Assembly (NCBI GenBank): GCA_002633005.1
Contig: NMRA01000507.1
Coordinates: 186,001 to 250,000, forward strand
Length of the DNA: 64,000 nucleotides
From: Phoronis australis
Lineage: Eukaryota > Animalia > Phoronida
Reading direction: 5' to 3'
Every line of letters begins with the position of its first letter. The stretch's first letter is position 1. The notes beneath the pieces were generated by a model. That model did no database searches and had not been told where the DNA came from. It saw nothing but the letters and a program-made list of their open reading frames with translations. Both the position numbers and the translations under genes were made by a program. This document shows, piece after piece, positions 12,421 to 50,854 of the stretch.

Positions 12421-12807
12421 ATGCTTGGTCTTGGAAGCATCGCTTTAACTTTTCTGGGGACGATAATTTTCCGAGTAGCCTCTGAACCACAACCACTATA
12501 CGGTAATATAGTGAACTTTTGTGCGGCAACGAAGCTCTTTGAGGCGCACGTCACATCGGTTTCTAGCGCATTCGTGTCGAGCTTTTATAGTTCGAAATCG
12601 GCTAGAAGTGACATTGAATGCACCGTTATTTGTAAACGAGACTCAGAAAACTGCGTGTCTGCTTTGTGGGATAATACAGGCGGCACATGTTATCTGTCTC
12701 GCTTTAATCTGAACTCCCAACAACCCGGTGAAAATCTCCAGGTTCGTTCGTCAGCGGAAGCCTCGAACACTGAAGGTAGAAAAGTGATATCGCTGAAGCA
12801 CAAGCTG
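12421..12807 (+). CDS. Exon 1 of 11: signal peptide + PAN/Apple domain of a secreted PAN-3xCTHRC1-C protein
   Basis: ATG ORF starts MLGLGSIALTFLGTIIFRVAS (hydrophobic leader). It contains SDIECTVICKRDSENCVSALWDNTGGTCYLS, the PAN/Apple Cys pattern (CxxxC..C..CYL). It ends at a consensus donor ctg|gtaagt, phase 0. Confidence 0.85.
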
Positions 12808-14100
12808 GTAAGTTGATTTTGTTTATCAGAATCGAGCTAACAATCGCATGTACAGTCATTTTGCGAATTTTAATTGCCACCAGGTCAACAAGTTTGGATC
12901 TGGGAAAAACCCTTCAACCAGTGTACATTTATTTGGTGCATTTCCTCGTCATTTGTTCCCCTACCCATTGCGGTTTTCAGTGGCAGGCAAATCACTCAGT
13001 TATGCCTCGGACCAGCTAGTTCGAGGTTATGTCGAAGATGTGTCAATAACAAGGCCAAGGACGTTGAAACCTGTACGACTGGGGATGGTTTGTACCAAAA
13101 TAAATGTTTCAAAATGATATTATTTAAAAGAACGCTAAAATATAACCACAATGCATCTTTTTATTACTCTTTCTTCGCGGAAACGTTCATATTCTATAGT
13201 TGGCCATTCAAATCTCTCAATACCTTACCACTCCAAAGATCTTGTGCATATGTAGTTTGGTGTACTCTGTCATTTAGGATTATGTAGGACCTTATCGTCA
13301 TGTTTGTGCGTTTAGTCAAATATCTAAAAGGCTGCAAAAATTAACCCGGTAAAAGTATATATTTTCCAAAAGAAGAAAGCATTTAAATTTTCATTTTTGA
13401 CTTCTTAACAATTTGTCATTAAATGTGTCACGTAACTATGTTTTTGGTAAAATTCAGAAAAAAGAAAAGAACATTCATACCAAAATAACAGTATCAATAA
13501 CACGGCTAAGTAAGTTCCTATGTTCAGATGAAATCACCAAAAACTCTGTCACAGTTTTCTGTATCAATTCTCTTTCTTGTCATGCAATTTTCCTGTTGTG
13601 TTTTATAAAGGTTATAAAATTCTTAGCAAAGAGAAGACATTAAAAATCATAAAAGTATTTTTTATAAAAGTGCATAAAGCACTGTATAAGAAAGGTTCAT
13701 CTTAATCCAAGCTGTTGCGTGATGTTTCGAAGTTCTTCTAGGGCAGTGGTTGTAGCAAAGTAGGCTGTCTAGTTAAAAATACTACAAAGATTCACCATCC
13801 AGTAGTTATACCGTTTACACTACAAAAGTTGACTCGGATCAGCTGACACGGAACGAGACGTTCCAGCGCAAGTATGTGTGTAAATAGGACTCACACGTAG
13901 CAAATTGACACCGTGGTGACTACTTTTGCTACCCGTTTGTGAGGTATATCAATTTGAGCTCAATCATCTTGCTCCGTGTCAATAAGCGTGAGACTGGGGC
14001 AACTCGGAAAGGATCTTCTTTACTGCTCTTGTGCAATAACCTACACACGGGTTCCTGTCTCTGCAACTCCCGCTATTTGAAAACCTGCGCTTGTGCGTTC

Positions 14101-14800
14101 CACAGGCGTCCTCAGCTTCTGATCATCCCCAGTACACTACATATAATACTACAAGGTATGACACTCCCGACTAGAAATTCCACGGGTGCTTTACTTCAGC
14201 CCTCTATAGCTAACATAAAACTCAATAAATTTACACAAAACAAGGTTTCAACAAACCACTGGTAATTGTTCTTTCTTCCAATACCATTCACGGTGTCCTG
14301 TTCCGGCGACTTCGTAAGAAATTCGCAATCAAAGAACAAAAATGTTCACAAAAAGCCCAAACACACTTCCATCTTGGACGGCTCGAGGTCAAGGACGGTA
14401 CGGAAATTGCCAGTTTGTCGCGTAAAATCACGATGTCGATATCGCCGTAAAGTCACGATGTTGATATCGCCGTCCATCCGTAATTCATCGGTAATTTCCG
14501 TACCGTCCTTGACCTCGAGCCGTCCAAGATGGAATTGTGTTTGGGCTTTTTGTGAACATTTTTGATCTTTGGCTGCGAATTTCTTACGAAGTCGCCGAAA
14601 GAGGACACCGTGAATGGTATTGGAAGAAAGAACAATTACCAATGGTTTGTTGAAACCTTGTTTTGTGTAAATTTACTGAGTTTTATGTTAGCTATAGGGG
14701 GCTGAAGTGAAGCACGCGTGGAATTTCTTGTCGGGAGTGTCATACCTTGTAGTATTATATGTAGTGTACTGGGGACGATAAGAAGCTGAGGACGCCTGTG
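14101..14800. mobile_element. 700-bp foldback MITE (~310-bp arms), 8-bp TSD (hAT- or P-type)
   Basis: CACAGGCGTCCTCAGC...GCTGAGGACGCCTGTG, flanked by GTGCGTTC/GTGCATTC. The mirror ORFs in the track come from this symmetry. Confidence 0.88.
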
Positions 14801-15348
14801 GTGCATTCCACTCTCCAACCTGCAACTTGCCTCAGTTAGTGAGATGTGTGTGTACATGTAAATGGCTGCTTGACACCGATCAATTTGCTTCGTGTCAGTT
14901 GCGCCGGGCCAAAAGTTGATGTGTAAACAGAACACTACATGGTTCGGCGGTCACTTTCAAACTGATGTACGTTAAGTACTTGGACGTGTGACGTCAGGAT
15001 AGAAGTAGGCGGAGCTAGAATTTTGATTCCTCCAAAGAATGGCGTTTTATTGTCCCACGCTCGTGCTCGTATTACCCATCCGTTTTGATACAAATAGATT
15101 CTCATACCTTCAAAGTAAAACTAAATGTCGTTGTCCATGATAAATTCATTTTCACCATCGACTGTTTTGTAAGGCATGGGACGTAACTGCTGAGTCCTTC
15201 AAGGAGATTTTAGACACCATCGGTTGACCACTTTTGAAGGGTTTGTCACTTTCTTGCTCTACTTCCTTGCCGTGGTCAGCAGTGGTAAATTTCCCTAGTG
15301 TGTTACCCATGAATGCACTTCTTTGATCGAAATGTATTTGTTTGTTAG

Positions 15349-15448
15349 GTGACAGGTGATAACAGTGAAGAATGCCTTGCCAAGAACTGTTCAGCGGGAC
15401 CCGCTTATTGTCGTAAAGAGTGTGATAACAACACTGCTACGTGTCTCG
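15349..15448 (+). CDS. Exon 2: Cys-rich (EGF-like?) linker
   Basis: tttgtttgttag|GTG...CTCG|gtatgt. 100 nt, phase 0 to 1. Translates VTGDNSEECLAKNCSAGPAYCRKECDNNTATCL with no stop and bridges the phases of exons 1 and 3. Confidence 0.75.
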
Positions 15449-15709
15449 GTATGTTCACTCAGATGCCATGCCAACTTGCGTTTAGGCACGAGCCAACCAG
15501 GCATTTCTGATGAAGTAACACTTCTGCCACACCGAAATCGGAGCAGCCATGCATTATGAAGGCAAAGGCACTATTGCATCTGTGATCGTTATTCGTTAAA
15601 AGGATACTGAACCATGCTGGCATCAATCTTCCATGTTCAACGTAGAAATCGATTAAAAACTCACACTTCCTATGTCATAGATTGGACATCATGGTCCTTG
15701 GTGGGTGGT

Positions 15710-15866
15710 CAGGGGAGGGTCCAGGATTTTGTGTTGGGGGGGGGGCAGGGCAGAGTATTAGCCAGGATTTGCCCTTCAGGCAGTCTCACCCCCGAAGTGC
15801 CAAATGGAATTTGAAAGACTTTTAGGGGGCCATGGTCCCCTTGGCCCCCCTCTAAATCCGCCACTG
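15710..15866. mobile_element. MITE with CAG..CTG termini and 5-bp TSD (same family as 6364 and 33906)
   Basis: CAGGGGAGGGTCCAGGATTTT...TAAATCCGCCACTG, flanked by GTGGT/CTGGT. Confidence 0.75.
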
Positions 15867-17414
15867 CTGGTCTATTCTCATAGTTGCACTGTAATTCGCT
15901 AAAACGGTAGGTCACGCTTGCTTCTTCAGCAGACTTTAAAAGGGTTTTTGAAATTTCCTACAATTTTTTAGGGTTGTTGAGGGTTACAGAGCATAATTTT
16001 GTTCCAGAGATCTGGGTGGGTATGTCGTTTTTAGTTTCTGTTGATAGGCCCAAACCTGGTTTGGTATCCTTTTAGGGATTTTAAAAGACTTACCATTTTC
16101 TTGTTTCCTGCATGTGAGTTCATTGTTAAGATCCCAAAAGTCCTATACATTGATTTGCTTGATAACAGTTCCTAAGTTTTAAACGTAATGTACATAGACC
16201 TTGAGGTGACTTAGCAACGAGCGTAAGAAAACCAGGCGGTTCTACAACAACGTACACATCCTGAACCTTTTCTAAAGAAAAGTCACGTGGGCACAATCAG
16301 AAATGTGATTTGCCCAACATTTAAGTTTCAAATGTAGAATGATTAAAGACTTTGCTTGGCGTGGCAATCTGTTACTGTACTTCCTTATTAAGAAGGAGGG
16401 TTAAATATCCTAGATTGAAAATAATTAGAAACATCCTCATGTTAACTGGATCAAACGTTTAAATCTAAAAGAAAACGGTAGTTAAAAATTATATCCCAAA
16501 TATATAATTGCGAAGTTGAGCGGCGATCTGATTTCATTTTCAAATTTTCGCTTAAGGAATTTGAAAATACAAATAAAAAATCCTTTCTGTTTGGAACTGT
16601 TTGAAGTGGGACTTTTATTTTGTGAAGATTTTCTAGATAGTGAAAATAAAATTCTAAGTTATCAATTTATTAAAAGTAAATACAGTCTTAAGAATGTGTG
16701 CGTATTGTCATACAAAGCGGTTACCAATGAATTGACGAAGCATATGACGATCTATAATTGAGATCCATTTGCTGTAACAGCTTATATTTAATAGATTATG
16801 ACAGTCGTAGTGAGGATTGAGTCAAAAAACTCCATTTTACATACATTTGCACAAAACCCGATAATTTTGTACCGTCAAGTTATTATAATAATGAAAAAAA
16901 TTAAAGAACTTTACTATCATTATACAACGTTCACCCTTCCCATCAATCTAGAATTAAAGAGTTTTAAACGACTCTTTACACATGAGCTAATATTTATAAG
17001 TATGACTTTATACAAGATTGGAGTATTCCTACTTGTGAGAAGATACAGACATTTCAGTCTTCATCTCTGGGGTGTCATAGGTTTTTTCAGAACTCCAAGA
17101 CAGATCACAAATTAGTTCTTAACACCATTTATACACTCGCACTTTTCTTCATCTGCCGAAATACAAAGGTGGAAAAAGTTCCCATTTTTAATAATTTCAA
17201 ACTGAAGTTACACGCGTTTATAAGCACTACTCTAACGGATACCTCGGACAAAAACCTGAATAAGAGGAGAGGTCTGCGCTCACGTCTTTAGTTATTATCC
17301 TGGAAAGGCACAGGAATCTTCCGTTATATTGACATTTGAACAGTTAGTACCTGCTGTTGTTACACAACGTTATGCATTAGATCAGAATTTTCGTATCGAT
17401 TTATTTATCATATA

Positions 17415-17590
17415 TGTTCGAGTATGTATAAATTATTACATGGCGAAGTCGTTATCCCCAGTATTCTACAGCGTGAGTGGATTTTGGCGTTAGCCCCGAG
17501 GGCAATAATTCTCCTAAATCCACGAGGGCTCTAGATAAGGGGGGGGAGCGACTGAGAAGATGTAATAATCTGTTTATACCAAACTGAACG
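17415..17590. repeat. Small imperfect palindrome (Crypton-like non-autonomous element?)
   Basis: gtataaattattacat..agtcg..cccc..gtggattt pairs with aaatccac..gggg..cgact..atgtaataat..ttatac around a ccccgagggc centre. Confidence 0.5.
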
Positions 17591-18070
17591 AGAAACATTG
17601 CAATGAATCGATCTACATTTGTCGACTCACCCCGACTTTGTAACTACTTTCCATGTCTGAGGCCCGGGGTCGGAGGTCGTGACCTTTTAAGAAAAGCCGA
17701 GCTATTTTTTCAAATAATGCTTTTACTCAAAATGAAAATTTAAACAAAATAGAAATAAGGTGAATCTATGAATTAAGGTTTAGCAACTATTATAGCTTAC
17801 TACATATTTTATCACTCTAGGCTTCGACCAGGAAAATATCGTCTGCTAAAGCAGATTACTATTGGTAAATGAGTATAATGCTCAAGTCAAAGGATCCCGA
17901 CGACACGATACCCGAATTCAAATTGGAGATCGGTGATTTATAAGTGAGAGAACATGAAAGAAGAATTTCAATGAGTCTTAGCGTATAAATGTAGGTACAA
18001 TGCCCTTTGCTGAACATGCGATTGTCGTGCGTGCTCATTTAAGTATTCTATTTTTCCGTTCGATGACGTC

Positions 18071-18215
18071 AGCTGCTGAATGGTGTAGTGGTAAAGTTGA
18101 CGACTCGAAACACTTGCGGACCGGATTCGAAACCGGCCTCGGTTCCCGCCAGGATTCGAACCCGGGCCTTAAAAGTTCCGAGTCACCGACTTTACCACAA
18201 CACCACTCCGCGGCT
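18071..18215. pseudogene. Two convergent tRNA-derived (SINE-head-like) sequences
   Basis: The + copy has A-box TGGTGTAGTGG (18081) and B-box GGATTCGAAACC (18123). The - copy has A-box TGGTGTTGTGG and B-box GGTTCGAATCC (18152-18162). Cloverleaf stems are degraded. Confidence 0.7.
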
Positions 18216-18451
18216 GACGACACCAAACGAGAAAATAGAATACTTAATGAGCACACGCAACAATCACATGTTCAACAAAGGCCATTGTACCTACATTTAT
18301 ACCCTATGAAAAATAAGGCGTATAATTTCCATAAAAACGATATTTTAATTCAGTGAAATTTTTCTCCCGTGTTCTCTCACTTGTAAATCACCGATCTCCA
18401 ATTTGAATGCGGGTATTCTGTCGTCGGGATCCTTTGACTTGAGCGTTATAG

Positions 18452-21143
18452 CAAGGAGTGTAGTAGTATAGGAGAGTTCACGTGTGAGTTCGCTGTTACC
18501 GCTACTACTAGCGCCGCCAAGTGGTGACTAAGCAAATGTCAACCAGGAAGCTCTAAAACAATGGGGAAGGACGCATTTTGCAGTGCGATAAATTGCATGA
18601 ATTCATCCACGAAAACCTCAGACGTGTTATTTTTTAGGTTTCCTAAGGATCCAGAAAGGTAAGGATTATCAATAATATAATACATTGTCTTTCATTTTGT
18701 GTGTTCTGTTCACGGTTGTTAGACAAGTTGATCGCAATCCCGTTGCCATTGTTGTCTGCAGTGTAGGCTGGGCTGGACTGTACAGCCGGGCTGCCGGCGG
18801 AAGGACTATGACGAACGTACGGTGTGATCGTCAGCTTTTTGGATACTTGCAGTCCATGAATTCCAAATCAAAATTTAACCCGTACGATCGCAGGGATAAT
18901 TTTAGGAAAACGTACCCATGCCCATGGCCACGGGTTATATGACTCGGTCATGACACGGCCATGGCACAATCACAGCCACAGGGCCACAAGTCTATCATGA
19001 GTCAGTTTAGAGAATCTGTGGGTCTCGGTGAAAAGGTGAAAAAATCAACATAATTTTAATGTGCCAGTTGGACCAATTAAGTTAAGCAGTGCATCTTTGA
19101 AAACTTAATTCTATTTGTCAATGATGCGGGGAGCGCGGCCCTGTTAAAATATCCGTGGATCAACATTTTAGTCCGAGCTTTTTTCAGTTGACACCAAAAC
19201 ACTTTTGTCTCTATCACAATCACAGTACGACAGGAATTCTGTAGCGTAGTGTACTTTAGTGTAGGCTACCAGTCTTCTGCGAACCCAGTGAGTATGAGGT
19301 TTTTTCCTGAGTCTCTCAGTCATTGATTTCTGTACAAGTGCAAGCGCTGGGAGCTAACCTTATGAATAGAGATGCAGCCTATTTGTCCAAGAACTGCAAG
19401 TTATGCTCTCATCACTTCGAGGAGTCCATGTTCATGAATGAAGAACAAGCTGGTATTGACTGCAGTGCCCGAACAATATTTGATTTCCCGAATTCACCAA
19501 AAATGAAGATGTCAGGGTCAAAAAGTTCTCCGGAAATTATATTACAGCTCTGGAATAGGCTTTTTGCATTTCTGATTATCGTCTCACAAAGCAAGTACCG
19601 GAAAATCACGTGTAGAAAGGACGATTAGCCAAAATCTGGTTTTTGTATTTTACTAAGGTTGATCAGATTGAAACATTTTATGAATGGTTAGCCTGTGATT
19701 TGGAGAGAGCCAAAGTGAAACTGATGGATAATTCAGACGGTCTGAGTGTTGGGCTGAATTTTTGTTAAACCCAAGCAATCCGTATCATTTTGCTTCTGAT
19801 GACAAACACCTCTGTGAGTAAATTAGTTTTCAGCTTTATTTATAACGCATTTCTTTGGCGAAAAGTGCTGTTGTTTACTAGTGAATTAATAGAGAGTGAC
19901 AAGATTGGTCAGATTTTCTTGCTGTATTGGTTGGTGTATGTGTTGCATATTGTGTACGTTTTTGGAGATTGTGATTAATTTAAGCCCCAGTAGTGGCTAG
20001 GTATCAGATATGATCTTGTGGTCTGGCTTTAACTTACCTGATATATTTACTGTTATTGATAATAGGAACAGTGGGTACATAAAATAAAATTTTGGTTTTA
20101 TCATGCACGTCTTTTTAATTCAATTTTGTATGAAGCTATGTGGGTAGTGAATATTTTGATTGCTGTTCAGTACCTCTTAATTTTTTGTCATGTCATTTTG
20201 AACTTTGACTAGTTATGAGTGATGATATACTCAATGTTACTTCGTTTTGTAAGTTGTGAGCTATTCTACAGATTAGCAACTGACTGTGGGTGATTATAGT
20301 GAGAGAGTGGGATCGAGTTTACCCAAAACTGGTATGTCTAAAAAATAATGGAATGTTAAAAAATTGTGTTATGATTTTGTAGTAGTGATGAATTGCCTTG
20401 CTTTCTTCTTCTCACTTGTGTAACACCCACTGCACAAAACAATTGTCTGCATTGCTAGTAGCCTGGTGCATTGAATGGGGAACACATGCGAAATTGTTGG
20501 TTGGAGATGAAACCAGCAGTGAGCTGGGAGCAACATGTTTGTCAATGGTCAAATGTGTGACGATGGGAGGGGCTCAACACCCATGTGGCATACATACCCA
20601 TTGGTTTTTACTTGTTTAGCACTCCTCCATGTAACCCCCCTGGGAGGGAGTCAGCACCCATTTGGCGCCCACCTGGTTTTTGCCTGGTACCCCATTATCT
20701 GGCACCTGGGGGAATTCCCCTCTGAACCCCCAGGAGCAATGATTTAAATTTTGTAGTCCATGGAGGTATGAACTGTTGTAAGGAACGATAATTGTCTTGT
20801 TAAGAACTCAAGCATGAAACAAAACCATGATGGATTTTGAAGGGAGCTTCAAGAGAATAAAAACAAATACACTTTAATATTGATTAAAATACACATTTTC
20901 GTTCTCATTCAATTATAAGTAGGTGTTAGTTTATGTATTTTAACCATTTTCAATCACACAGTAATTTTATTGCACGATGAATGTCATTAAATTTGGGAAT
21001 TTATCAGTGTTTACATTGTTCGGACTGCGCTCCTAAGTAAGTGTTGATTATTCACCGCTTGGGGCGCCAGTGTTTCGACCGGTAACCATTGCGGCGAATG
21101 GTAAAATGGCGGAGTGAACTCTCCTGTACCAGTACACTCCTTG
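18452..21143 (+). mobile_element. Non-autonomous P-superfamily (Galileo-like) DNA transposon with THAP-domain remnant
   Basis: 30-bp TIRs (CAAGGAGTGTAGTAGTATAGGAGAGTTCAC, 3 mismatches) and a 7-bp TSD GTTATAG/ATTATAG. THAP exon 18561-18658 reads MGKDAFCSAINCMNSSTKTSDVLFFRFPKDPER|gtaag. A decayed second exon at ~19340-19500 contains KLCSHHFEESMF..TIFDFP. Confidence 0.88.
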
Positions 21144-21760
21144 ATTATAGTCAGTTACTAGTGGTAACCTACTTTAGCAGACGATATTTTCCCGGCCGAA
21201 GCTTAGCGTGATAAAATGTGTAGTAAGCTATAATAGTTGCTAAACCTTAATTTATAGATTCACTTTATTCCTATTTTGTTTAAATTTTCCATTGGTTTTG
21301 AGTAAAAGCATTATTTGCCAAGAAGCTCGACTTTTCTAAAAAGGTCACGACCTCCGACCCCGGGCCTCTGACATTGGGGCATAAGACATTCTCTTTCTAT
21401 GCAGCAGGTGACCCATTCTCCACAATTTTCTTTGGCACTTTCGTTTAGTATTATTTTTTCATTAATAAACATGCAGTATATTTTACTTCTAGCTCGTGGA
21501 AAGATACTTGAGTACAAAACCTTACACATATCCTATATTGAATCAGGCAGCGTCTGCGGTCAACCGTCAAAGTGACAATTTGGTTTCATTTGAAAAGTCG
21601 TTTCTATGCGCTGTTTTACAACAAACATTTGTCTTGGTAACAAAGGGTTATAAAATGCTTAATTATTATATCTCTTTTGAGTCAGACGGACATAAAATGC
21701 ATGGACAGCTGTGATAATTAGTAAAATTTATCTATATTAAACCGTTTATATTTGTTGCAG

Positions 21761-21855
21761 CTATATTACAGGACTGTGCTGAAATTCCAGTCTCGAACAT
21801 TCGGCATTTTTACTGGCCAAATTTTGAAAGTCACGAACATTCGGGGACAGTGTTG
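21761..21855 (+). CDS. Exon 3: CTHRC1-C repeat 1, N-terminal part
   Basis: tttgttgcag|CT...TTG|gtatgt. 95 nt, phase 1 to 0. (A)ILQDCAEIPVSNIRHFYWPNFESHEHSGTVL aligns with exons 6 and 9 and with the CTHRC1 NYKQCSW...GKIA segment. Confidence 0.8.
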
Positions 21856-23821
21856 GTATGTTCGCTGCACGTTAGTCCTTGTACTCTGTTGTAAAGAATT
21901 GTCTGTGAACGTTGTGAACATCATGTCTGTTTTCATTAAAAGCAACAGTTTATATCATAACAAAAGTACAATTTTCCGATTCCAAGAAATTTTGTGGGCG
22001 CCGACCGGAATGTAGTCGGAAGCTTTGGCAGGGAGTCGCTGTCAAAAATCATCAATTTAGATGCATAATCCGGCAAAGCTAGAAAACCCTTCTCTGCTCG
22101 GTTGATTACTCAATCACAGGACTTCGGCATACCATGGGGCTACGTTGTTTGATATCCGAAGGCGATCACTCAATGGCCTACACACTTCCGGCCGATTTCA
22201 AATAGTCGATTGACATCAACGGCCGTCGCTCGAAGTGTGGTTGATGCCTGGCAGATTTATACACCATAGTCTGCTGAATCATGTTGCAGCAGGCTAGCCC
22301 GGCATCAGTTTTAATTTTGTAGCCACTGCAATCTCTCCGATAGAAATTCCAGGAGATAGTACGTGGCCTTTCGGATATAGTTCGCACCATCGACTGGATC
22401 CACCAAACATCACACGATATGTGATTAATGACTTTGGCAAATATTGGAAGATGTTTGCCAACACGCCGACTTTGTATATCCCGAGGACGTATTGTGATTG
22501 AACGATCTGATCGGGTCAGCACAAACTGCGATGGCAGAGAGGTTCCGAGGTGGAATCGACGAGTTTGTGGAGAAAATGGTTAGTACTGCCGGTAGCTGAG
22601 CGATGATTACATAGAAGACTGTGAATGGTGTCGGCCTGGCCTCTATGTTTAAGTCAGCAATCGTTGCATTATCGGAAATTCCGACTTTTCAATCATAGTA
22701 GGACGACAGATCTTATTGATTTTGTCTAATATCGACTAGCGATCGCTCACAGATTACTCAGTAGATTTGATTAGTCGACTGACGTTAACAGCAAACTGCC
22801 GACTTCAAGCAAAGTCCCATGAATATCTCCCTGATTTGTTGGTCTACATGATACTCTGTTGCTTGTAGTCTTGGTGTGTGGAGTAGCATCAATTTCACAT
22901 TGTTCATATGTGATCTCTGCTCTCGATCCGACCGAAAAGCTACTCAACAGGTGCGCGACAGGTACGCAACATGTTTGTACCAAGCAGGAAATTTTGCGAC
23001 GCTCGCCGTGCGACATTTTGATACTTAACGGCGCTAAATATTCAATATTGGTAAAACTCCATATGCAATTTGATACGGCAGGTCTGTAACAAAAAATCGC
23101 CGAGTAATATTGTACGATAGTTACACGACGAAAGAAAGCCTGACGTAGAACAATTGAGGGTCTAAAACTGTTTAACATGTCGTGCGATAGTCTTACAACC
23201 GTCTTACGTTACACGCACGATAGTCGTTAGAACATTTCACCATCACACGCCCATCATGTGACTATTGTGCACTCACGTTAGGACTACAAATCCAAGGCAA
23301 ATGCAAACACGACAATACCTTTGACGATCGTGTGACTGTCCGAACTTGCATCGTTTCTTCATTACCATCGCACGCCCAAAGTAACAAGGCCTTAAGGCAA
23401 TAGCCAACTAAAAGTAGTTGTTGACTTCCGTATACATATTGGCTACCACATTAGGATTGCGCACGCCCGCAGTTAATGACCGCTGGTTTTGAGTCGCGAA
23501 GGAGAATACTAACACTTCGATAGTGCAGAATTGTGTAGAATGGCTCGCGGTTGACAGATTTTTCTTAGCTTTGCTCTGAGTTACCAAACTAATTTACAAT
23601 TAACTACTCTGGTGCAAAAAACGTTTTCGCTACAAATTACTGGGCATTTAATCTAACCTTACCCTTGTTGCCCACGTTCAGGCATACCTGCATTGTAATG
23701 GCTGACACTAACAAATCTGGAGCGTTGCAGCGCGTTACACTTCGTCTTTAAATTCCTTGAACATGACACAGTGCACGTTTGACAGGATGTCTAGCTTTAA
23801 AATGTTCATATTTTGTTTTAG

Positions 23822-24020
23822 AGTGTACTCTACAGGAAAAAGTACAACTTTACTGGCCTGAGGGTTCAATTCCGCGGAGTTTTAGGAACTGGCAAACATG
23901 CGGATTCCAGTTGCAGCCGATGGCACTTCAGGTTTGACAACAAAGAGTGTCAAAATCCAGGAACTATAGAAGTGGTGTGGCTCAATGGCATGCCCTCGGA
24001 TTATTACAGACCTTCACGGG
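23822..24020 (+). CDS. Exon 4: CTHRC1-C repeat 1, middle part
   Basis: ttttgttttag|AGT...CGGG|gtaaga. 199 nt, phase 0 to 1. SVLYRKKYNFTGLRVQFRGVLGTGKHADSSCSRWHFRFDNKECQNPGTIEVVWLNGMPSDYYRPSR resembles CTHRC1 [27 protein letters not shown]. Not in the ORF track. Confidence 0.88.
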
Positions 24021-24313
24021 GTAAGACATTCACTCGTTTGAAACTTTAGGTTTGTTACCTCCGCTAATAAAGTTGAGAGACGTAATAAAATAGAATAAAA
24101 TAAAATAAGAAAATTTTTGTGGAACTTCGTGAAGTCGATTTGACTTTGTGGTTGTTTGTCCAGTGACGTCACTTTTTTCTCATTCGTTCTCAACATATCA
24201 TTGTCTTGCATTGCAAGAACCCCAACTGTTGATGCGGGGGCAAAAAAGGAGGCCAGCATTTTGAAACTTGAGATGTTTTCTCCAGATGGAAGTGTTTCTT
24301 CCTTTGATAGAAT

Positions 24314-24314
<1 letters not shown>

Positions 24315-24361
<47 letters not shown>
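24315..24361. repeat. (GT)n microsatellite in intron 4
   Basis: Uninterrupted GT run. Confidence 0.95.
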
Positions 24362-24363
<2 letters not shown>

Positions 24364-24535
24364 CGCGCGTATCATTTCAATATTCCTGGCTATGGTAAAC
24401 ACTAGTAAGAGCGTTGTTGGGAAAATGAACCTAAACTATCGTTCAATGGAAAATTACGAATTGTTTCTTTTACAGAAGAACATTAAGTAGTTCAAGCAAC
24501 CAAAACACAGTTGTTTTTACCTGTATATATTATAG

Positions 24536-24691
24536 TTGATGGCATTTGTGAAGGCCTGCTCGCCGGGGACATTAACATCTCGTTTGAAGTTGGAAATTGT
24601 AGAGGATATCCTGTATCGACTAGCTCAACTGGAATGACTGGAGTGGGAGTCTCGCTTACAGTAGAGGAAAACGACTTGAGTACTAGTTTGG
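24536..24691 (+). CDS. Exon 5: CTHRC1-C repeat 1, C-terminal part
   Basis: tatag|TT...TTGG|gtaaag. 156 nt, phase 1 to 1. (V)DGICEGLLAGDINISFEVGNCRGYPVSTSSTGMTGVGVSLTVEE resembles CTHRC1 [44 protein letters not shown]. Confidence 0.88.
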
Positions 24692-31086: not shown

Positions 31087-31169
31087 GCACGTGTCCCGGT
31101 TTGTCGAGATTTAACATAGCACAGGTCTCGTGGACGAATGAAAGTGATGTCACCGACGGATTCGTAAAA
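31087..31169 (+). CDS. Exon 6: CTHRC1-C repeat 2, N-terminal part
   Basis: cttctgtag|GC...AAA|gtaagt. 83 nt, phase 1 to 0. (G)TCPGLSRFNIAQVSWTNESDVTDGFVK. Confidence 0.82.
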
Positions 31170-32749: not shown

Positions 32750-32942
32750 AAGTTCGTCTACTACAAACGCGACCCGAATACGACCATTCACGTGATTTTC
32801 GTTTCCAACATGCTAACTGCCGGCAATGTTATCGAATATCACATCAAATTCAACGACAACCTTTGTACCTCACCCGGGACAGTCGGTGTGCGCTTAGGAT
32901 TGTATGCAGCTAATTTCAGGTCCAGAATTGGCACAAACGCAG
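32750..32942 (+). CDS. Exon 7: CTHRC1-C repeat 2, middle part
   Basis: tatttgtag|AAG...GCAG|gtaaag. 193 nt, phase 0 to 1. KFVYYKRDPNTTIHVIFVSNMLTAGNVIEYHIKFNDNLCTSPGTVGVRLGLYAANFRSRIGTNA shares YxK..IxV and FN..C..PGT with exons 4 and 10. Confidence 0.82.
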
Positions 32943-34014: not shown

Positions 34015-34146
34015 GTTTCAATATAAGAACATAGTATACCACCGGGTTTATCTGTACAAACGGGACAGCCAAATGCCACCAGTACTGGTACTATAAACAC
34101 TCTGGCATTGCTATCTGTACCACTATCAAAAATTTAATCTAAAACA

Positions 34147-35306: not shown

Positions 35307-38037
35307 CCTGATGGCCACCTCCATTTAAATACTCTCGCCATTTTTAATCTGGGGGACCTTGTTTTTTAAAATAGTGTTGGAAGGCACATGGATACAATTC
35401 ACACTCCAAAAGAATTGAAGACAATTGACAAGTTCTTTTATACAAGTGCAACAACAAAATAAGTATTTATTTTCACAATTTTACTATATGGCATAACGTT
35501 TATTTGGACATCTACTTTGTGACGCCTGTCTTGCAAATAAAGGTTTTGTTAATAAAAGTTCTTCCTTCACTGTGACAAGTTTGGTAGCGTACAAGGAATT
35601 GCAGTTCATAGACGCCTTTTGCACATGAGGTTTTAATCCACCTCGAACCGGGTCCAACTGACGACAAAAAAAAAACCAAAAAAACACAAGAACGAAGTGT
35701 GTAAACAATATATTTAGCGTACCCTTTTGACTATAAAATCTCGGAAGGCGGCAGAAAAGTCCGATTTGAACACGACTTTATCCGAAGCTTAAGCCTTACA
35801 TTGCAACCAATCATGGTAATTGTCATCCTGCCAGATCCGCATGCAAAACTTGTAGGACCTTTCCAACATTAGCGTTGTAGACGGAGGTTCGTGGTACTGT
35901 GACAGTCCGCTATACTCCCAAGAGGAACATGTATATATGGTGTTGAATCGCTAGTCACCCGCCATCAGTCGTCAATGAACACACATGATATCCGACAACA
36001 GCCAAAGTTAAACTTGCTTGTTTCTTATTTTCTGTAGCTTGACGGAAGGTTTCAAATAGACCGTGTCCAACCCCTATTACAGTGTGTAAAAACGCGTGTC
36101 CGTGTGGTTGAAATATCCGACATAACGCTTGTGTTTTACACAATCGTTGTCCGGCGTGAAACGCACGTAACCTGACAGACAGTGCCAACGTTAGACAACT
36201 TTATCCGGAGCTTATGTACTAACTAAACGTTTCGAAAGCAGAATGTCTGGTTGCTGTTTATTTAGTACGCGACCTTATTTCGTCGCATGTTTCCGTCATC
36301 TCTGTCCATCATATCTGCCTGGCGTCCCTCCGTCTGGCGTCTGTCAGTCCCGTATTATGAAAATTAACATATATGTTCTAACATGTACTGAGAAGAGAAC
36401 GACTGACGATAAGTTATGGACGGGTTAGAGTACTTTAACCCCGGCCCCCACAATGTCAATTTTATTTTTGCCTGTGGCTCAGTACCTTCCGAGCTCCTTG
36501 GTGGATTTTTATCAAATTTGTCATTTTGCTATTGGGGAGAGTACAATGGCTTTAGCTGATTTTAGCATAAACTCGACTACTGCTGAGTCTCCCAGTGACA
36601 ATGTTTGCTTCTGTCTCGATATTAAGTCATTTCTTGGTAAAAGCTTATGAATTTGGCGGATAAATTTCTTTCCTGAAGAAAGCGGTCTTTGCATCGTTTT
36701 TATTTCTGTTCTTTATCGACCGCTTCCTTGCCGGCTATAAACAACCCGAGGATCGTGGTGAAAGTTGTGAGTGATGACGTGCTTTTGTGCTCACTAGGGA
36801 CTATGCTAAGTTACGTATTGCACCTTTAGTGGTAATAGACCGGCAGCCTAGAGCACTTAGCATAGATGAAAAATGTACCAACACCTGACCACGGGAGCAT
36901 TTAGATTCTACCTCTGTATGTACAGAAATGGACTTCTGCCGTTGTCTGCACTCTAGGTGTGACCCCTGGAGGCCTTACAAAGGGGCCAAAATTGAGCTAG
37001 ACTAGATGTTCGAGGTACCGGCCGAAACTGATTTAAAAAAACAACAGTACCCCACTGAACACCGAATGACCCATGACAGACAAATTGCACTCTGGAATAG
37101 GTCCGGCAGGACCCATAAAAATCCCCAAAATGACCTAGCACATACATACATTCGAGGTACCACAAAAACAATTCCATGTGATTCAATACATGTCAGGGGT
37201 CACTAAATGCCCTATCACAGACAAAATGCTCTGGATTATGCCCTGCAGAAACCCTAAAAATCACAACCACGGTATGCCATCGAAATTTAGAGCTACATTA
37301 GATACCCGAGGTACCGGCCAAAACTGACTCAAAATCAATAATCGTGCCGCACCAGATGACCCATGACAGACAATTTGTGCTCTGGAAAGCGCGCGCCAGA
37401 AACTAAAAACGACATCCTAAAAGGAGCTAGGTCATCATTCGAGGTACCACAATAAACAATGCAATGAGATTCAAATAGATGTTACTGAACCCACTCTAGG
37501 TTGTGCTCGCCAGACCAAGAAATATCAACCACGTAATTGTGAAAATGACATATTAGATAATGAAGATACCGGTTAAAGCTTAGTAGAGTTTCTCAGAATA
37601 AAGGATTTCAATAAGAAAGGTGTTGTGATCACGTGTTTCGGTGCATGGCAAATTAGTGTATTCCGTAAAACTTTTGCGTCTACTGAGCTGTCTCTGGCGG
37701 AAAGTAAGCATGTTGGAAAGTACCTGATAACAGTAAAATGTTTAAGACGCAGCTAGTGTAGTAGAATGAGCTACCAAAACTGCCAGCAGGAATGATGCTT
37801 CAATGGCAACAAATGTCCCCTAAATTTGCGCTAGATCGAGGAACCACGAAAATGATTTCCAAAGAGTCCTTTCATTCCATTGACTACAATACGTTGAAAG
37901 AAATGCAACAGACGTGTTTTCAAAATTCTTCTTTAATCAAAATGAACTAGAAATAACAAGACTTTCAAACAGCAACCCATAAACTTATAACAACATAATA
38001 ACAGACAATTAAAGTCATTGCATCGGCGAGAACATCA

Positions 38038-40077: not shown

Positions 40078-41932
40078 ATGCAGACCAGGCAATGCTGCAG
40101 CGAGACCATGTTGTATACATGTAGACTCCAAAGTCGGAACAATTATAGCGGTGACGTATATACGTCTACGGCTATTACCAGATCCACAGTCCATTATTAC
40201 ACGCTGGAAAGACATTTCTCTGCCGCTCTTCACTTGCTATCATTCCGATGACAATTACATGCCAGAAACCTTGATTAATACATTGCCATTTGAGTTGGCT
40301 AAGTAGAGGGCAAGAAGGAAATGATAACGAGTAAACAATGAAAATGTCCCGAAGGCTCTCAGCTGTTGTCATGTCCTTGGCAAGAAGCTGCTTCTTGTTT
40401 ATACTTTCTTTTGCAAAGTTGTGTACTTTTCGTTTTCTAATGGGCTTCAAAACCAGTTCTTAGCAGTTGAACACTGTTCTCGCAGTTTGCGTCCAACAGC
40501 AAGGCACCCGAATAAGTACTCTTTGGTTCCTTGTGCGGCTGCTTTGCTAGTTGCAATATTCAGCAAATAGTCGGATGCTGTTGCTGGATCATATTTTTCT
40601 GGGGGGGCGGGGGTCATTTTGTGTCTGTCATGGGTCATTCGGTGTTCAGTGCGGTACTATTTTTCGTTTTAAATCAGTTTTAGCTGGTACCTCGGAAATC
40701 TAGTCTAGCTCAAAACTTTGATGGGAAACAGTGGTTGAGATTTTTAGGGGTTTCTGCCTGGCACAACCCTGAGTGTATTTTGTCTTTCATAGGGCATTAA
40801 GTGACCAGTAACATGTATTGAATCACATAGAATTGTTTTTTGTTGTACTTCGAATGTAAATGCTAGCTCATTTTTGGGGGTCCTTTTTGGTTTCTGCCAG
40901 ACCTATTCCAGAATGCAATTTGTCTGTCACGGGTCATTCGGTGTTCAGTGCGGTACTGTTGTTCTTTTTAAATCAATTTCGGCCGGTACCTCGAATATCT
41001 AGTCTAGCTCATTTTTTGGTCCTTTGTAAGGACCCCAGGGGCCACACCCAGAGTGCAGACAACGGCAGACGTCCATTTCTGTACATATTGAGGTAGACTC
41101 TTAATCCTACGTGGTCAGATGTTAGTACCTTGTTCATCTATGATAAGTTCTCTGGGCTACCGGTGTATAATGTTTTGGACATTCCCTTCACCGCGTGGTG
41201 TACATCTTGTATCTTGTTGACACGGCGGGTGCATGTCACTGCTCTGCGTTCCTCTTGTATAGGGGCTCTGCTTCAGAATGCTTTCCGTGTGGCTATGTGG
41301 TGTATCCGTGCTGTCTCCGACATTTCATGATGTAACTACAGAGTCAAATGCAATGTTAGATTTTCACTGTCTTACTGCTGTGCTTGACGAGGTTTTACAC
41401 TGCGTTATCAAGGATCCCCCAGTGCCAACATGAAGTCTAAAATTATTTGACATTGTCATTGCGAGTGTTCACGGTCCGTTACAAACCGACAAGGCCGCCA
41501 CGAAAAATCAACCGCGTTAAACTACCCGGTGTCCGCGGAATTGTGGCGGATGTGTGTCGGGTTGACTACGAAGCTGTTCCTCAGAGGAGTATGGCGTATT
41601 AACGAAAGGCGGTGAAGTGCCGTTTGAACCGCCAAGGCGAGAAATGAGCAATAGGACATGCCTCTTAAAACAAGCACTGGAGAAAATCGAGAGCTGAAAT
41701 GCCACGCAAGGAAAAACACTTTAGGCCATGTCAGACAGTTTATGCTACACTTGGTCTTGCTTTTCTTGGCATATATTTTGCCGGACATTTAAAGCATTGG
41801 TAGTTTTTATCCTTAGGTCACCATCTGTACATGACTACAATAAACCTACAGAGCTGTCTGACATCTAAAATTTTTAATTTTGCGCACTTCATTCATTCTT
41901 CACCACCGTGACAGAATTGTGTCTGCTTTCAG

Positions 41933-42082
41933 TAACTGGCATGTGTGAGAACATAGAAGCCGGTAACGTGGTTATCGGAGTCCACGTACAAAATCTTACT
42001 GAGCCAGCGGCCTATACAGGTTGGAATTCCCGAAGTCGTTTGATTATTGAGGAACTGCGACTCCGCATGGACGTCAGCGCTG
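41933..42082 (+). CDS. Exon 8: CTHRC1-C repeat 2, C-terminal part
   Basis: gctttcag|TA...GCTG|gtacgt. 150 nt, phase 1 to 1. (V)TGMCENIEAGNVVIGVHVQNLTEPAAYTGWNSRSRLIIEELRLRMDVSA has a near-canonical TGWNSxSRxIIEEL motif. Confidence 0.9.
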
Positions 42083-43429
42083 GTACGTGTCATTATATGA
42101 CTTGGTATCGATAAGATTTTCAAACTAAATAGAGACGTTTCCTCAACCAATAAGGGTGCATGTATCTATAACTAGTTACACTTATGAGAACATGTACACG
42201 CGACCGTTGCACTCCCACTCATTTGCTGTGGGAGTTTGCGAAATTAATGATGACTCGGAATGAAAATTTCGAAACATGAGGCGATCGTCTGGGTTGGGGG
42301 TGGGGCAAAAGTGGCGGCAGGTTGTATTTCCAATCTTTTCGTCTGATGATCATGTCAGGGTGGTTACAAATTTTCACAAGGAGTTTGATAATAGGAAGAT
42401 CACGCACATGCACGTGTTTGGCAAGAAAAATATTTTTTATTTCCTCTTGTTTGACCAAGAGGTGGTGTTATTTGCTGACTTTTAGCCAATCACATGCTCG
42501 GACATTGGGAAGATACAGAACTATTTCAAGATGGCTGTCGCGGATGAATGTGGTAAACATTATCATATAGATTATTCCTTGCAAATATCTTGGGACGAAA
42601 TCAATGACTGTGTGAAGAGGGGCTTTCTTCAGAACACAAAGAGAGCGCTGAGCATGACGTGTAGCACCAGTGTTGATGTAGTAAATACACGGACTAAACT
42701 GGTCAAAAACCCGGATGTCCCAAGACATCCTACAAAATTAGGGTGCGCAAATCAACATAACGTTCTGCCGATACTCACTATGTCATATTCATTAACATGC
42801 TGAATGGCAAAAATGAAACTCATAATTCATACCAGGTAAATGCTCAGCCACTGTTCTTCCCATTGATTTCCTGTGAATATTCTTAAAAGTTATTACGCTT
42901 TTGAGACATGGATGCACCATCATCATCACCAATCATCCTTTCTACGGCACATACAATTTAGTCAACTTGTTGAGAAGCACTTTCAAAAAAGTGCATTTCG
43001 AAGATCCACTTTGACCGGTTTAGGGTATACATGTCACGTGTTGTAATTTGCCAGTCTTGCAAAATTTAGACCCTCGCGAGACTTCCGGCATATTTCTTTA
43101 CGACTGAATAAGAGGCAGCAGAATCCACTTTATCGCATGTAAAGTGCATTTGTGCAAAGTGTGAGCTCTAAAAAGATCGAGATAAGCTGCCCGTACGTGG
43201 TTACAAACGGATTAGCGGCGCCACGCAAGAGAAAAGTTGAGTATTTTCACTGTTGCTTCGTTTGCTGTAAGCAGTTTAATGCTCAAAGTGGCAGTTATCT
43301 CGCCCCCGTGGGATTTTTAGGAATTATAACCTTAGGGACTAGTACCGTTCCGATAGTATTTCTTCCAAATCCCACCAGGATGGGGAATGACAGCCCCACT
43401 ACGTAATAAACTGTATTATTTAATTTCAG

Positions 43430-43536
43430 TTATATCTCCCGATGGCGTCGTCCACCGACTTCCAGAACAAAACATTCACCACTGGTGGTGGTCCTCGGCA
43501 AGTGAGGGAACCAATGCCGGCCATATTAAATTTATT
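43430..43536 (+). CDS. Exon 9: CTHRC1-C repeat 3, N-terminal part
   Basis: taatttcag|TT...ATT|gtaagc. 107 nt, phase 1 to 0. (V)ISPDGVVHRLPEQNIHHWWWSSASEGTNAGHIKFI. Confidence 0.82.
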
Positions 43537-46046: not shown

Positions 46047-46194
46047 CAGGGCTCGACATAACGAGCTGCAGGTCGCATTTGCGACCTGAAATTTGGAAAT
46101 GCGAGCTGAGATTTTTGTCAGCTCGTATAAAGTCGCAAAATGCGACCTGNGGTCGCAAAATGCGACCTGGCGATTTTATTAGCGTCGAGCCCTG
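46047..46194. mobile_element. MITE with CAG..CTG termini and a perfect 5-bp TSD; contains N46150
   Basis: CAGGGCTCGAC...GTCGAGCCCTG flanked by AAAAG/AAAAG. Internal (g)gtcgca...tgcgacc palindromic units. Confidence 0.85.
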
Positions 46195-49100: not shown

Positions 49101-49445
49101 AAAAAACACAATTGAACTAACAAAGTAACATTGTGTCTGTGACAAAGGACACAATAGGTAAAATGAAGTCCATACGGGCATAAAAAAGACGAAATGAAGC
49201 GTCGCATTCACGAAATAGCATTGGATGTGCAACATCATAAGATTGAGGTTATTTTCTTGAATTGAGTGTCCGATAGTAGCAATTTTTCCCTTTTGCCCCC
49301 CTCACCCCATCAATAACCATTCTTGGCGTTCATGTGATGCATCAGATCCTCATAGGAGGTATCTTTGGTTCATTTTTTATGTTAACATTTTATATCTAAA
49401 TACACTAAGATATACAACAGTGAGATTTATGCAAATGAAACACAG

Positions 49446-49446
<1 letters not shown>

Positions 49447-49487
<41 letters not shown>

Positions 49488-49510
49488 ACGCACACACGCA
49501 CACACGCACA
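49447..49510. repeat. (CA)n microsatellite in intron 9
   Basis: CA run degenerating into CACACG units. Confidence 0.95.
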
Positions 49511-49927
49511 TATCTACATAATAGAGCTTCACGGTTGATCTAATCCAAATAAGTATTGAGGATTTCCCAAAAGGCAGTTTTGAGGGGTTGAATATTTCTT
49601 ACTTTACAATAATAACACAAGAAACATTGAAATTGTGAATATCTAGGAATAATCTGGTCTCTAGAACATTTATGGAATACTGGCAAATAGTTAATATGGT
49701 ATTGATATCTTCAAAATTACATCCAAAATAAGTTTTCAAAATAACATTTGTATCTAAAATTACATCGTGTTGTGCAGTTACGTGAATTAAAAGTTTCTGA
49801 ATTTCACATCACAAAGTTTTCAACTGAACTACATTCCACAAACATTTGATTAAAAGTCTCCACAGTTCCTTGGTTGATGAGCGCGTTTCGTGATTACCCG
49901 CTGACAACTTCTGTTTGTATATTTAAG

Positions 49928-50144
49928 GACGTGAACTACGTAAAACAGTCTTCGCTCAGTTACATACGCGTTTATTACCAAGGTGACATAAGACTACGTC
50001 CATCTTGGAAGAAAAACGAAGCCTGTGGCAGATGGTTCTTCACGTTCAATGGCACAGAATGCTCCAAGCCCGGTACAATAGCTGGTATTATTTCCATGCG
50101 TTCAGATGATGCTTTCGTGTACAACCACCATCATCCCTCCGTTG
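49928..50144 (+). CDS. Exon 10: CTHRC1-C repeat 3, middle part
   Basis: atatttaag|GAC...GTTG|gtgagt. 217 nt, phase 0 to 1. DVNYVKQSSLSYIRVYYQGDIRLRPSWKKNEACGRWFFTFNGTECSKPGTIAGIISMRSDDAFVYNHHHPSV has a clear CxRWFFTFNGxECS motif. Confidence 0.92.
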
Positions 50145-50714
50145 GTGAGTATTAACCCTTTAAATCATTCCTGTGGTTCATTTCTCTGCCTCTGATATGG
50201 TGTCCATACACAGGTTGATACAATAATATTCTAATTCAAAATCTCATTACTCTATGTAAATTGCTATCACATTTTCCCCAAAGCCCGTCCCAATAGCATC
50301 TAAGTTTTGTTTGATATAGTTTGTTCAGAGATAGTGACGTCATGGCTTACTGATAACAAAGAAACGACATGCTCACTCACAATTCCCACATGTCCACATG
50401 ACGAGAAGAATTCATTTCTATTCTGCGACAACGCAATTTTTACGGCAACCCGTGCATGGCTTTTTATGTAATTTTTGGTACTTTCCAATCGTATGAAGAG
50501 TGACTCAACAACGATTGAAAAGCGCCTTTCACTCAATTGGAAACTGACTCTCCACCCAGATGAAAAGCCAGTTTTCATCCATGTGGAAAATGCTTTTTAT
50601 CTGGGTTCAAAGTACCAAAAAGTTAAGAACATAGTCATGCACATGCCACTCTATTTTTGAGATTTTAGCTGTTTTAAAAAATATGACATATTGTTTATAC
50701 CCGTTTACTTTTAG

Positions 50715-50854
50715 TTGAAGGGCTTTGCAAGTTAGATGCCGGGACATACAACATACGTCTCTATATTGAATCCTGCAGTGACACCTGCGACGCCTCCACG
50801 TGTTCTAACGCTGTCTGCCGTCTGGTGGTCGAAGAACTGTTTCTTACAGAATAG
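50715..50854 (+). CDS. Exon 11 (terminal): CTHRC1-C repeat 3, C-terminal part and stop
   Basis: ttacttttag|TT..., phase 1. (V)EGLCKLDAGTYNIRLYIESCSDTCDASTCSNAVCRLVVEELFLTE-TAG. The stop falls just after EEL, where CTHRC1 also ends. Confidence 0.88.

What the first reader, a model, noticed from the sequence alone, without database searches (positions are those of the whole stretch)
12421..50854. Hidden 11-exon gene: secreted PAN/Apple + 3x CTHRC1 C-terminal domains with no collagen helix
Seen in sequence: 11 exons with GT-AG introns whose phases join into one uninterrupted 608-aa ORF over 38 kb. Established: canonical CTHRC1 is signal peptide + short Gly-X-Y collagen repeat + ONE C-terminal globular domain, and acts as a secreted trimer linked to Wnt/PCP and TGF-beta signalling. 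Here the collagen segment is absent, a PAN/Apple binding module and Cys-rich linker precede the domain, and the domain is triplicated. I do not know a described protein with this architecture. Inference: it may be a lineage-specific extracellular recognition, matrix or signalling protein.
Basis: partly seen in the sequence, partly recalled or inferred. Interest (0 to 1): 0.85.

Follow-up and report, generated by a model that had tools for sequence, protein, structure and literature searches.

The report
Collagen-free single-chain CTHRC1 trimer head
This animal gene encodes a likely secreted protein in which three diverged copies of the CTHRC1 end-domain are predicted to fold into one complement-C1q-like three-part head without any collagen, behind a PAN module; the same unnamed design occurs in several brachiopod genes and likely serves to grip matrix or surface ligands.

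Summary
The gene is real. Eleven GT-AG exons (12421-50854, + strand) join into 608 aa with no internal stop. All 11 rank in the top 12 of 2,923 window ORFs against a profile built only from homologs; null maximum 5 bits. RNA reads confirm one of ten junctions (E10-E11, 11 reads); 5' exons are barely covered.

The architecture is not unique. Three uncharacterised Lingula anatina proteins and one unnamed 611-aa protein carry PAN_1 plus three CTHRC1_C domains, colinear at 27-32% identity.

AlphaFold models of two homologs (stand-ins; the spliced window protein was not folded) place the three repeats as one body on engineered single-chain C1q/adiponectin trimers (Z about 25, rmsd about 3.5 A, about 340 residues). 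The repeats are therefore predicted to form a covalent pseudo-heterotrimer, which would make collagen unnecessary.

A PAN + CTHRC1-like protein is listed, on one peptide, in the Lingula shell matrix. The ligand is untested. No paper describing the family was found. The scan earlier noted a similar triplication in a bacterial fibre (e1-1519963). Verdict: new variant of a known kind.

The parts
12421..12807 (+). Exon 1 (aa 1-129): hydrophobic start that looks like a signal peptide (about aa 1-21), then a PAN/Apple domain
   Evidence: Highest hydropathy window starts at aa 1 (no SignalP available). PAN_1 18.5-19.4 bits; Atlas 0.95. Five Cys align with Cys in 5 of 5 homologs that cover them.
15349..15448 (+). 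Exon 2 (aa 130-162): five-cysteine module
   Evidence: All five Cys are shared with P0003, P0002 and P0005; P0152 and P0155 lack the module. Junction 2 aligns without a gap.
21761..21855 (+). Exon 3: start of CTHRC1_C domain 1 (phase 1 to 0), with invariant Cys168
   Evidence: Phase scan; 14.0 bits at profile positions 149-181.
23822..24020 (+). Exon 4: middle of domain 1 (phase 0 to 1)
   Evidence: CTHRC1_C 35.3 bits.
24536..24691 (+). Exon 5: end of domain 1 and first linker (phase 1 to 1)
   Evidence: CTHRC1_C 28.6 bits.
31087..31169 (+). Exon 6: start of domain 2, with invariant Cys315
   Evidence: Phase scan; 10.8 bits at profile positions 294-322; junction 5 aligns without a gap at the joint.
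32750..32942 (+). Exon 7: middle of domain 2, the most diverged repeat
   Evidence: phmmer from E4, E 0.044; 20.6 bits on the homolog profile; no Pfam CTHRC1_C hit alone.
41933..42082 (+). Exon 8: end of domain 2 and start of second linker
   Evidence: CTHRC1_C 33.8 bits.
43430..43536 (+). Exon 9: rest of second linker and start of domain 3
   Evidence: Phase scan; 15.3 bits at profile positions 447-484.
49928..50144 (+). Exon 10: middle of domain 3
   Evidence: CTHRC1_C 56.3 bits; RNA depth about 10-14x in X2 and X3.
50715..50854 (+). Exon 11 coding part: end of domain 3 and TAG stop
   Evidence: CTHRC1_C 17.5 bits; 570-nt GT-AG skip from E10 in 11 reads.
50855..51067 (+). Likely 3' UTR ending near an AATAAA at 51062
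   Evidence: Signal position; a 156-nt contig of run X1 matches 50904-51057 with no difference (X1 is only guessed to be RNA).

Best explanation
The gene encodes a likely secreted two-headed binding protein whose three tandem CTHRC1_C domains are predicted to fold back on each other into one C1q/TNF-like trimeric head, so that the polypeptide linkers would do the job that the collagen helix does in ordinary CTHRC1. Shown in the sequence: the domain order, the lack of collagen, and that each domain is a three-exon cassette bounded by phase-1 introns with its two inner introns at identical positions, which points to tandem triplication of one cassette. Predicted on two homologs: the single-chain trimer. 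Inferred: because the three repeats are only 25-35% alike, the head is a fixed heterotrimer with three different inter-subunit grooves; invariant Cys168 and Cys315 may staple domain 1 to domain 2; the PAN domain and cysteine module give a second binding site at the base. Inferred function: an extracellular adaptor that binds glycans or matrix proteins at both ends in secreted matrix or on epithelial surfaces.
For: Colinear full-length homologs: P0003 29.5% over 569 columns (E about 5e-66), P0002 27.5%, P0176 28.0%. Inter-domain spacing of 14 and 21 residues is identical in the window, P0003, P0002 and P0152 (16/17 in P0155). Inner introns fall in alignment columns 36 (phase 0) and 110 (phase 1) in all three domains. 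Stand-in folds: P0003 pLDDT 67.7, pTM 0.72 (10 sequences) and P0002 pLDDT 64.6, pTM 0.67 (7 sequences). Both align as one body to single-chain trimers: 5hkj Z 24.9, rmsd 3.4, 337 residues; 4dou Z 25.3, rmsd 3.5, 337 residues and 5hkj Z 25.3; the next unrelated rows are Z 7-8. PMC7058181 had modelled the CTHRC1 C-domain as C1q-like and able to trimerise. Single-domain neighbours include TNF-like lectins PLTL and BC2L-C (Z 6.5-7.0), and the P0002 N-terminus matches the lectin SML-2 (2yil; Z 7.8, 62 residues). Lingula gene 19546 (best hit CTHR1_HUMAN, PAN_1, signal peptide, 446 aa) is in the acid-insoluble shell matrix list. Oyster multi-C1q proteins mostly carry three domains (PMC6835236).
Against: The window's own spliced protein was not folded; both models are of homologs at about 28-30% identity, share most of their alignment rows, and have low confidence (pLDDT under about 50) for the N-terminal 150 residues, so where PAN sits is unknown. 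The window's domain 2 has lost a cysteine pair, and domain 3 has lost the conserved Gly-Trp near its end and gained three Cys; it matches 58 of 75 columns invariant in homologs. Z 7-8 matches to lectins show a common fold only. The shell hit rests on 1 peptide, is not marked mantle-specific, and I could not tie gene 19546 to one accession (P0005 is similar: 449 aa, pI 5.4 against 6.0). None of 9 family accessions appears in the supplement of a 2026 Lingula shell proteome, where two control accessions were found. RNA depth on E1-E4 is 0-4x against 10-14x on E10. The host phylum is not known, so a shell role cannot be assumed.
Confidence: 0.55

Rival explanations
1. Same single-chain head, but it works as a signalling modulator like vertebrate CTHRC1 (Wnt/PCP, TGF-beta or receptor binding), with PAN tethering it to the cell surface.
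For: PMC7058181 proposes a conserved signalling role for the family. Fixed heterotrimers are a known way to tune TNF-family receptor choice (established knowledge; single-chain APRIL-BAFF-BAFF is a structural match at Z 20.8-22.6).
Against: Lingula keeps ordinary collagen-bearing CTHRC1 genes beside this family (P0039, P0178). The repeats diverge fast (26-32% identity to homologs). No receptor evidence was found.
Confidence: 0.18
2. It is a soluble pattern-recognition protein of innate immunity, the CTHRC1-based counterpart of bivalve three-domain C1q proteins.
For: Bivalve C1qDC proteins act as opsonin-like receptors and 21 oyster genes carry multiple domains, mostly three (PMC6835236 passages). 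Lingula has at least 7 models of this family.
Against: The Lingula models are old and divergent (29-67% identity), unlike the recent near-identical oyster C1qDC copies. No paralog lies in the 64-kb window.
Confidence: 0.15
3. The gene model is right as an ancestral form, but the main transcript here is a shorter 3' isoform, or the 5' exons form a separate or decaying unit.
For: Depth falls about tenfold between E10 and E4, and E3 has no read in any of 4 runs. Only junction 10 is seen in RNA.
Against: All 11 exons are open and in phase over 38 kb, with 11 of 11 N-terminal Cys kept. An unnamed 2,632-nt contig carries the whole architecture as one 611-aa frame. The few reads in the E1, E2 and E4 bins lie on the expected strand. 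E4 begins about 1,470 nt from the 3' end, so 3' bias could explain the drop. Only 18-19% of each run was read.
Confidence: 0.07
4. The three domains do not close on each other; each pairs with the same domain of two other chains, giving stacked trimer heads or a network.
For: Ordinary CTHRC1 is a homotrimer (PMC7058181). An Oscarella protein has collagen plus four domains (P0008), which cannot all fit one single-chain trimer. The structure tool folded one chain only, so it could not show this form.
Against: No collagen or other trimer stalk is present. All 6 complete lophophorate-type models and 2 bacterial proteins examined have exactly three domains. Both models close into a trimer-like body.
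Confidence: 0.05

Closest known systems
CTHRC1 family (Leclere et al. 2020, PMC7058181; Pfam PF25815 CTHRC1_C)
   Same: Signal-peptide-like start and CTHRC1_C domain; domain modelled as C1q-like jelly roll.
   Different: No collagen helix; three domains instead of one; PAN and cysteine module in front; trimer predicted within one chain.
Uncharacterised Lingula anatina proteins XP_013395411.1 (LOC106162620), XP_013412409.1 (LOC106175114), XP_013399537.1 (LOC106165752), and unnamed P0003
   Same: PAN_1 plus three CTHRC1_C domains; same cysteines; spacing of 14 and 21 residues where measured (P0003, P0002, P0152); colinear alignment.
   Different: Only 27-32% identical; no one-to-one ortholog shown; the window's D2 and D3 have changed cysteine sets.
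Bivalve smultiC1q proteins (PMC6835236; three-domain examples in PMC10672478)
   Same: Secreted, collagen-free, usually three tandem C1q-fold domains.
   Different: Built from PF00386-type C1q domains (family number recalled), not CTHRC1_C; no PAN is mentioned in the passages read; I saw no structure for them.
Engineered single-chain trimers: C1q head (PDB 5HKJ, 5HZF), adiponectin (4DOU), Cbln1 (5KCA), APRIL-BAFF-BAFF (4ZCH)
   Same: Three jelly-roll domains on one chain in the same geometry as the stand-in models (Z 21-25).
   Different: Laboratory constructs, 6-9% identical; the protein here would be a natural one with longer linkers.
Bacterial fibre proteins ending in three CTHRC1_C repeats (P0036, P0054; scan note e1-1519963)
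   Same: Three tandem CTHRC1_C domains at the C-terminus.
   Different: Their six repeats form a clade of their own (100/96), are closely alike, have 3-14 residue spacers, and sit on a fibre with no PAN: an independent triplication.

Membership tests
CTHRC1 (canonical) | CTHRC1_C domain | tested here: met
   Pfam PF25815 above cut-off on E4, E5, E8, E10; three domains of 76-97 bits on a family profile.
CTHRC1 (canonical) | Gly-X-Y collagen repeat before the domain | tested here: not met
   No run in the protein; no collagen exon in six frames of the window.
CTHRC1 (canonical) | One C-terminal domain per chain | tested here: not met
   Three domains, aa 173-305, 320-445, 467-603.
CTHRC1 (canonical) | N-terminal signal peptide | tested here: inconclusive
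   Hydropathy peak at aa 1-19 and no later membrane segment; no signal-peptide predictor available.
CTHRC1 (canonical) | Modulates Wnt/PCP or TGF-beta signalling | not testable with these tools
   Needs cell assays.
Lingula-type PAN + 3x CTHRC1_C family (unnamed) | Domain order, shared cysteines, linker spacing and full-length colinearity | tested here: met
Lingula-type PAN + 3x CTHRC1_C family (unnamed) | Repeats group by position (D1 with D1, and so on) | tested here: inconclusive
   Labels cluster more than shuffled (4 changes against 9.5; 0 of 200), and four Lingula D1 rows group at 99/97, but no window domain has a supported place. Position profiles pick W1 for D1, tie W1 and W3 for D3, and do not pick W2 for D2.
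C1qDC / smultiC1q | Pfam C1q domain sequence | tested here: not met
   No C1q family hit on any of the 11 exon frames or on the homologs scanned.
C1qDC / smultiC1q | Trimeric jelly-roll head | tested here: met
   Predicted, on homolog stand-ins only.
C1qDC / smultiC1q | Calcium site on the three-fold axis and binding of microbial patterns | not tested
PAN/Apple domain proteins | PAN_1 profile above cut-off with four core cysteines | tested here: inconclusive
   18.5-19.4 bits against 21.4; the cysteines are conserved; homologs pass at 21.7-25.8 bits; Atlas 0.95.

The most novel reading that the evidence does not exclude
Lophophorate-type animals evolved an unnamed family of natural single-chain C1q/TNF-like heterotrimers from CTHRC1: triplicating a three-exon cassette replaced the collagen helix, freed the three subunits to diverge into an asymmetric three-groove head stapled by a new disulfide, and coupled it to a PAN module as a matrix cross-linker used in shell, tube or cuticle. 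Bacteria (CTHRC1_C x3) and bivalves (C1q x3) reached the same design independently.
Probability: 0.35. Interest if true: 0.7.

Novelty: new variant of a known kind. Interest (0 to 1): 0.5.

Why it matters
No solved structure matched exon 10 of this gene by sequence, and PMC7058181 reported no experimental structure for the CTHRC1 domain, though human CTHRC1 is much studied in fibrosis and cancer. A natural one-chain version would be a simple monomeric handle on that fold, and would test directly whether the domain trimerises without collagen. It also gives a clean case of exon-cassette triplication turning a homotrimer into a fixed heterotrimer, a route apparently taken separately by bacteria and bivalves, and it names a family now scattered in databases as 'uncharacterised' or cut gene models.

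Tried and rejected
No whole genome is held for this window, so paralogs outside it and the host taxon could not be checked. Word-based homolog searches were weak: E10 against longer proteins gave none; the family alignment returned 2 proteins among 5,680 candidates. The Atlas gave no usable hit for P0002. A PDB sequence search with E10 found nothing at E up to 10. The run search listed no holder on record as RNA; the three raw-read runs came by species label. Alignment A3 (33 rows) put second domains under the third and was dropped before folding. The quick tree's 21-row clade of lophophorate-type repeats (96) did not survive the careful search and is not used; that tree's bootstrap had not settled, and it used 58 domain rows chosen from the 150 listed hits and their cluster members (P0176 and P0177 were found later and are not in it). 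P0004, P0026 and P0102 among the long hits have no CTHRC1_C domain and were dropped; P0010 and P0015 are collagen-bearing two-unit proteins of another design. The first accession search in PMC13425148 was badly formed and was repeated with controls. Rejected: a hidden collagen exon or a fourth domain in the window. Literature searches that found no description of the architecture; the library lacks most subscription papers.
Full report
Observation. The window is animal-type DNA of about 39% G+C with scattered repeats; no genome is held. Motif scans, exon-against-window searches and a splice-phase scan recovered eleven plus-strand exons. Joined, they give 1,827 nt, 608 aa and one terminal stop, with ten GT-AG introns of 515-8,990 nt. 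Pfam finds CTHRC1_C above cut-off on 4 of the 11 exon frames and below it on E11; PAN_1 on E1 is just under cut-off. A profile made only from seven homologs ranks all eleven exon-bearing ORFs in the top 12 of 2,923, with E1, E2, E3, E6 and E9 at the expected profile positions; six null windows reach at most 5.0 bits. No collagen exon and no fourth domain exist in the window.

RNA. Four public runs were laid on two stretches. On 49600-51800, a 570-nt GT-AG skip equal to junction 10 is shown by 8 reads (7 starts) in X2 and 3 reads (3 starts) in X3, none in X1 or X4; three more X2 reads show the same joint with two letters between. All have the first mate on the minus strand, as expected for plus-strand RNA in most stranded libraries. 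On 11950-24290 most reads fell on intronic repeats; none of junctions 1-3 is among the 15 joints listed (56 not shown), and E3 has no read. Approximate depths in X2/X3: E1 0.3/0, E2 at most 4.1/1.1, E3 0/0, E4 1.6/0.6, E10 13.6/9.7, E11 6.6/6.2. So the 3' end is transcribed and spliced, and the join from PAN to the repeats is not shown by RNA. The drop may be 3' bias or a short isoform; I could not tell.

Gene anatomy. Each CTHRC1_C domain is three exons bounded by phase-1 introns, and the two inner introns fall in the same alignment columns and phases in all three domains. This points to tandem triplication of one cassette (inference). The repeats are now only 25-35% alike.

Relatives. A profile of E4, E7 and E10 against 1.84 billion representatives gave 199 hits at E up to 0.001, of which 150 were listed. 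Twenty long hits and seven cluster members were scanned with Pfam. PAN_1 plus three CTHRC1_C domains occurs in P0001, P0002 and P0176 (Lingula anatina XP_013399537.1, XP_013395411.1, XP_013412409.1, all 'uncharacterized') and in P0003 (611 aa, unnamed, on a 2,632-nt contig, so likely a spliced transcript). Four more Lingula models are partial members: P0005 (PAN + 2), P0006, P0177 (3, no PAN) and P0025/P0155. Bugula neritina has a two-domain model without collagen (P0007). The window protein aligns colinearly with these at 26-32%. All eleven cysteines up to Cys168 are shared with P0003, P0002 and P0005, and domain spacing of 14 and 21 residues is identical in four of five complete proteins measured. 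Seven of ten junctions (2, 3, 4, 5, 7, 8, 10) align with no gap at the joint in the homologs that cover them. P0005 ends one residue after the column of junction 8, so Lingula likely shares that intron and P0005 is likely a cut model. This is the main support for one gene. The best named relatives are all lophophorate, which suggests but does not show the host group.

Structure. The spliced protein was not folded, so two homologs stood in. P0003 gave pLDDT 67.7, pTM 0.72; P0002 gave 64.6 and 0.67 from an alignment without bacterial rows. In both, the first 150 residues are uncertain and the three repeats are beta sandwiches. Foldseek's top rows for both are engineered single-chain trimers. VIA-align lays the whole three-domain region as one body on them: 5hkj Z 24.9, rmsd 3.4, 337 residues for P0003; 4dou and 5hkj Z 25.3, rmsd 3.5, 337-339 residues for P0002, at 6-9% identity; unrelated rows start at Z 7-8. 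The three repeats are therefore predicted to form one C1q/TNF-like head. Cys168 and Cys315 precede D1 and D2, are invariant in six homologs and have no obvious partner within a domain; a staple between them is my inference. The two models are not independent: they share method and most alignment rows.

Mechanism. Ordinary CTHRC1 trimerises through its collagen repeat, and its C-domain was modelled as C1q-like (PMC7058181). Here covalent linkers would hold three subunits together, making collagen dispensable and letting each subunit diverge. C1q/TNF-type heads commonly bind ligands at the apex or between subunits (established knowledge), so an asymmetric head offers three different sites, and PAN a further one. 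I put the single-chain head at about 0.8 and the matrix or surface adaptor role at about 0.55 overall. The one functional lead is Lingula gene 19546 (best hit CTHR1_HUMAN, PAN_1, signal peptide, acid-insoluble fraction, 1 peptide, 446 aa, not starred as mantle-specific) in the shell matrix table of PMC4595640. Against it, none of 9 family accessions is in the supplement of a 2026 Lingula shell proteome. Signalling and immune roles remain open.

What is known. PMC7058181 defines the family as signal peptide, collagen and one domain; its Table S3 footnote says Lingula and Phoronis have further proteins with the domain and no collagen. I saw no mention of PAN or triplication in the text read. Oyster multi-C1q proteins mostly have three domains, a functional parallel from a different domain family. 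Two bacterial proteins end in three repeats that form their own clade, agreeing with scan note e1-1519963; I did not fold them. Searches found no paper on this architecture.

Papers seen. PMC7058181: parts 1-6 of 8 of the text, supplement parts 1, 98, 99 of 99 and searched passages; intron marks in its Fig. S3 are colours and could not be read. PMC4595640: passages, supplement part 9 of 24 and a term search. PMC13425148: passages and four supplement searches. PMC6835236, PMC10672478, PMC6626399, PMC12716839: passages. All others: search listings only.

Verdict. A real, expressed gene; not a canonical CTHRC1 and not unique, but a member of an unnamed family whose likely design is a natural single-chain trimer. 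New variant of a known kind; interest 0.5.

Noticed in passing
window 62722-63999 (+), with 62239-62718 upstream: Open frame running off the window end with an RVT_1 hit (59.3 bits): a non-LTR retrotransposon-type element.
   Followed up: partly
window 123-687 and 4032-4594: 565-bp direct duplication at 98% identity, overlapping a zf-RVT frame at 3849-4274.
   Followed up: partly
window 13600-21400 (introns 1 and 2): Several interspersed repeats draw deep RNA reads at 88-95% identity; a THAP-like fragment lies at 18528-18659 (21.2 bits, below cut-off).
   Followed up: no
window 36835-37372 and 40622-41168 (intron 7): About 550-bp inverted repeat pair at 83% identity.
   Followed up: no
window 50715-50854 (exon 11): Domain 3 ends with three extra cysteines and lacks the Gly-Trp conserved in homologs; the odd count could leave a free thiol for dimers. 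Unexplained.
   Followed up: partly
window 32750-32942 and 41933-42082 (domain 2): Both cysteines of one likely disulfide are lost together; several homologs lose the same pair in domain 1, which suggests they pair.
   Followed up: partly
proteins P0009, P0008, P0118: CTHRC1_C also appears fused to folate-receptor domains (Branchiostoma), as four copies with collagen and fn2 (Oscarella), and behind RING/TRAF zinc fingers; some may be fused gene models.
   Followed up: no
window 12343-12420: The frame is open for 26 codons upstream of the ATG and an acceptor-like AG lies near 12382, so a 5' exon may exist upstream.
   Followed up: no
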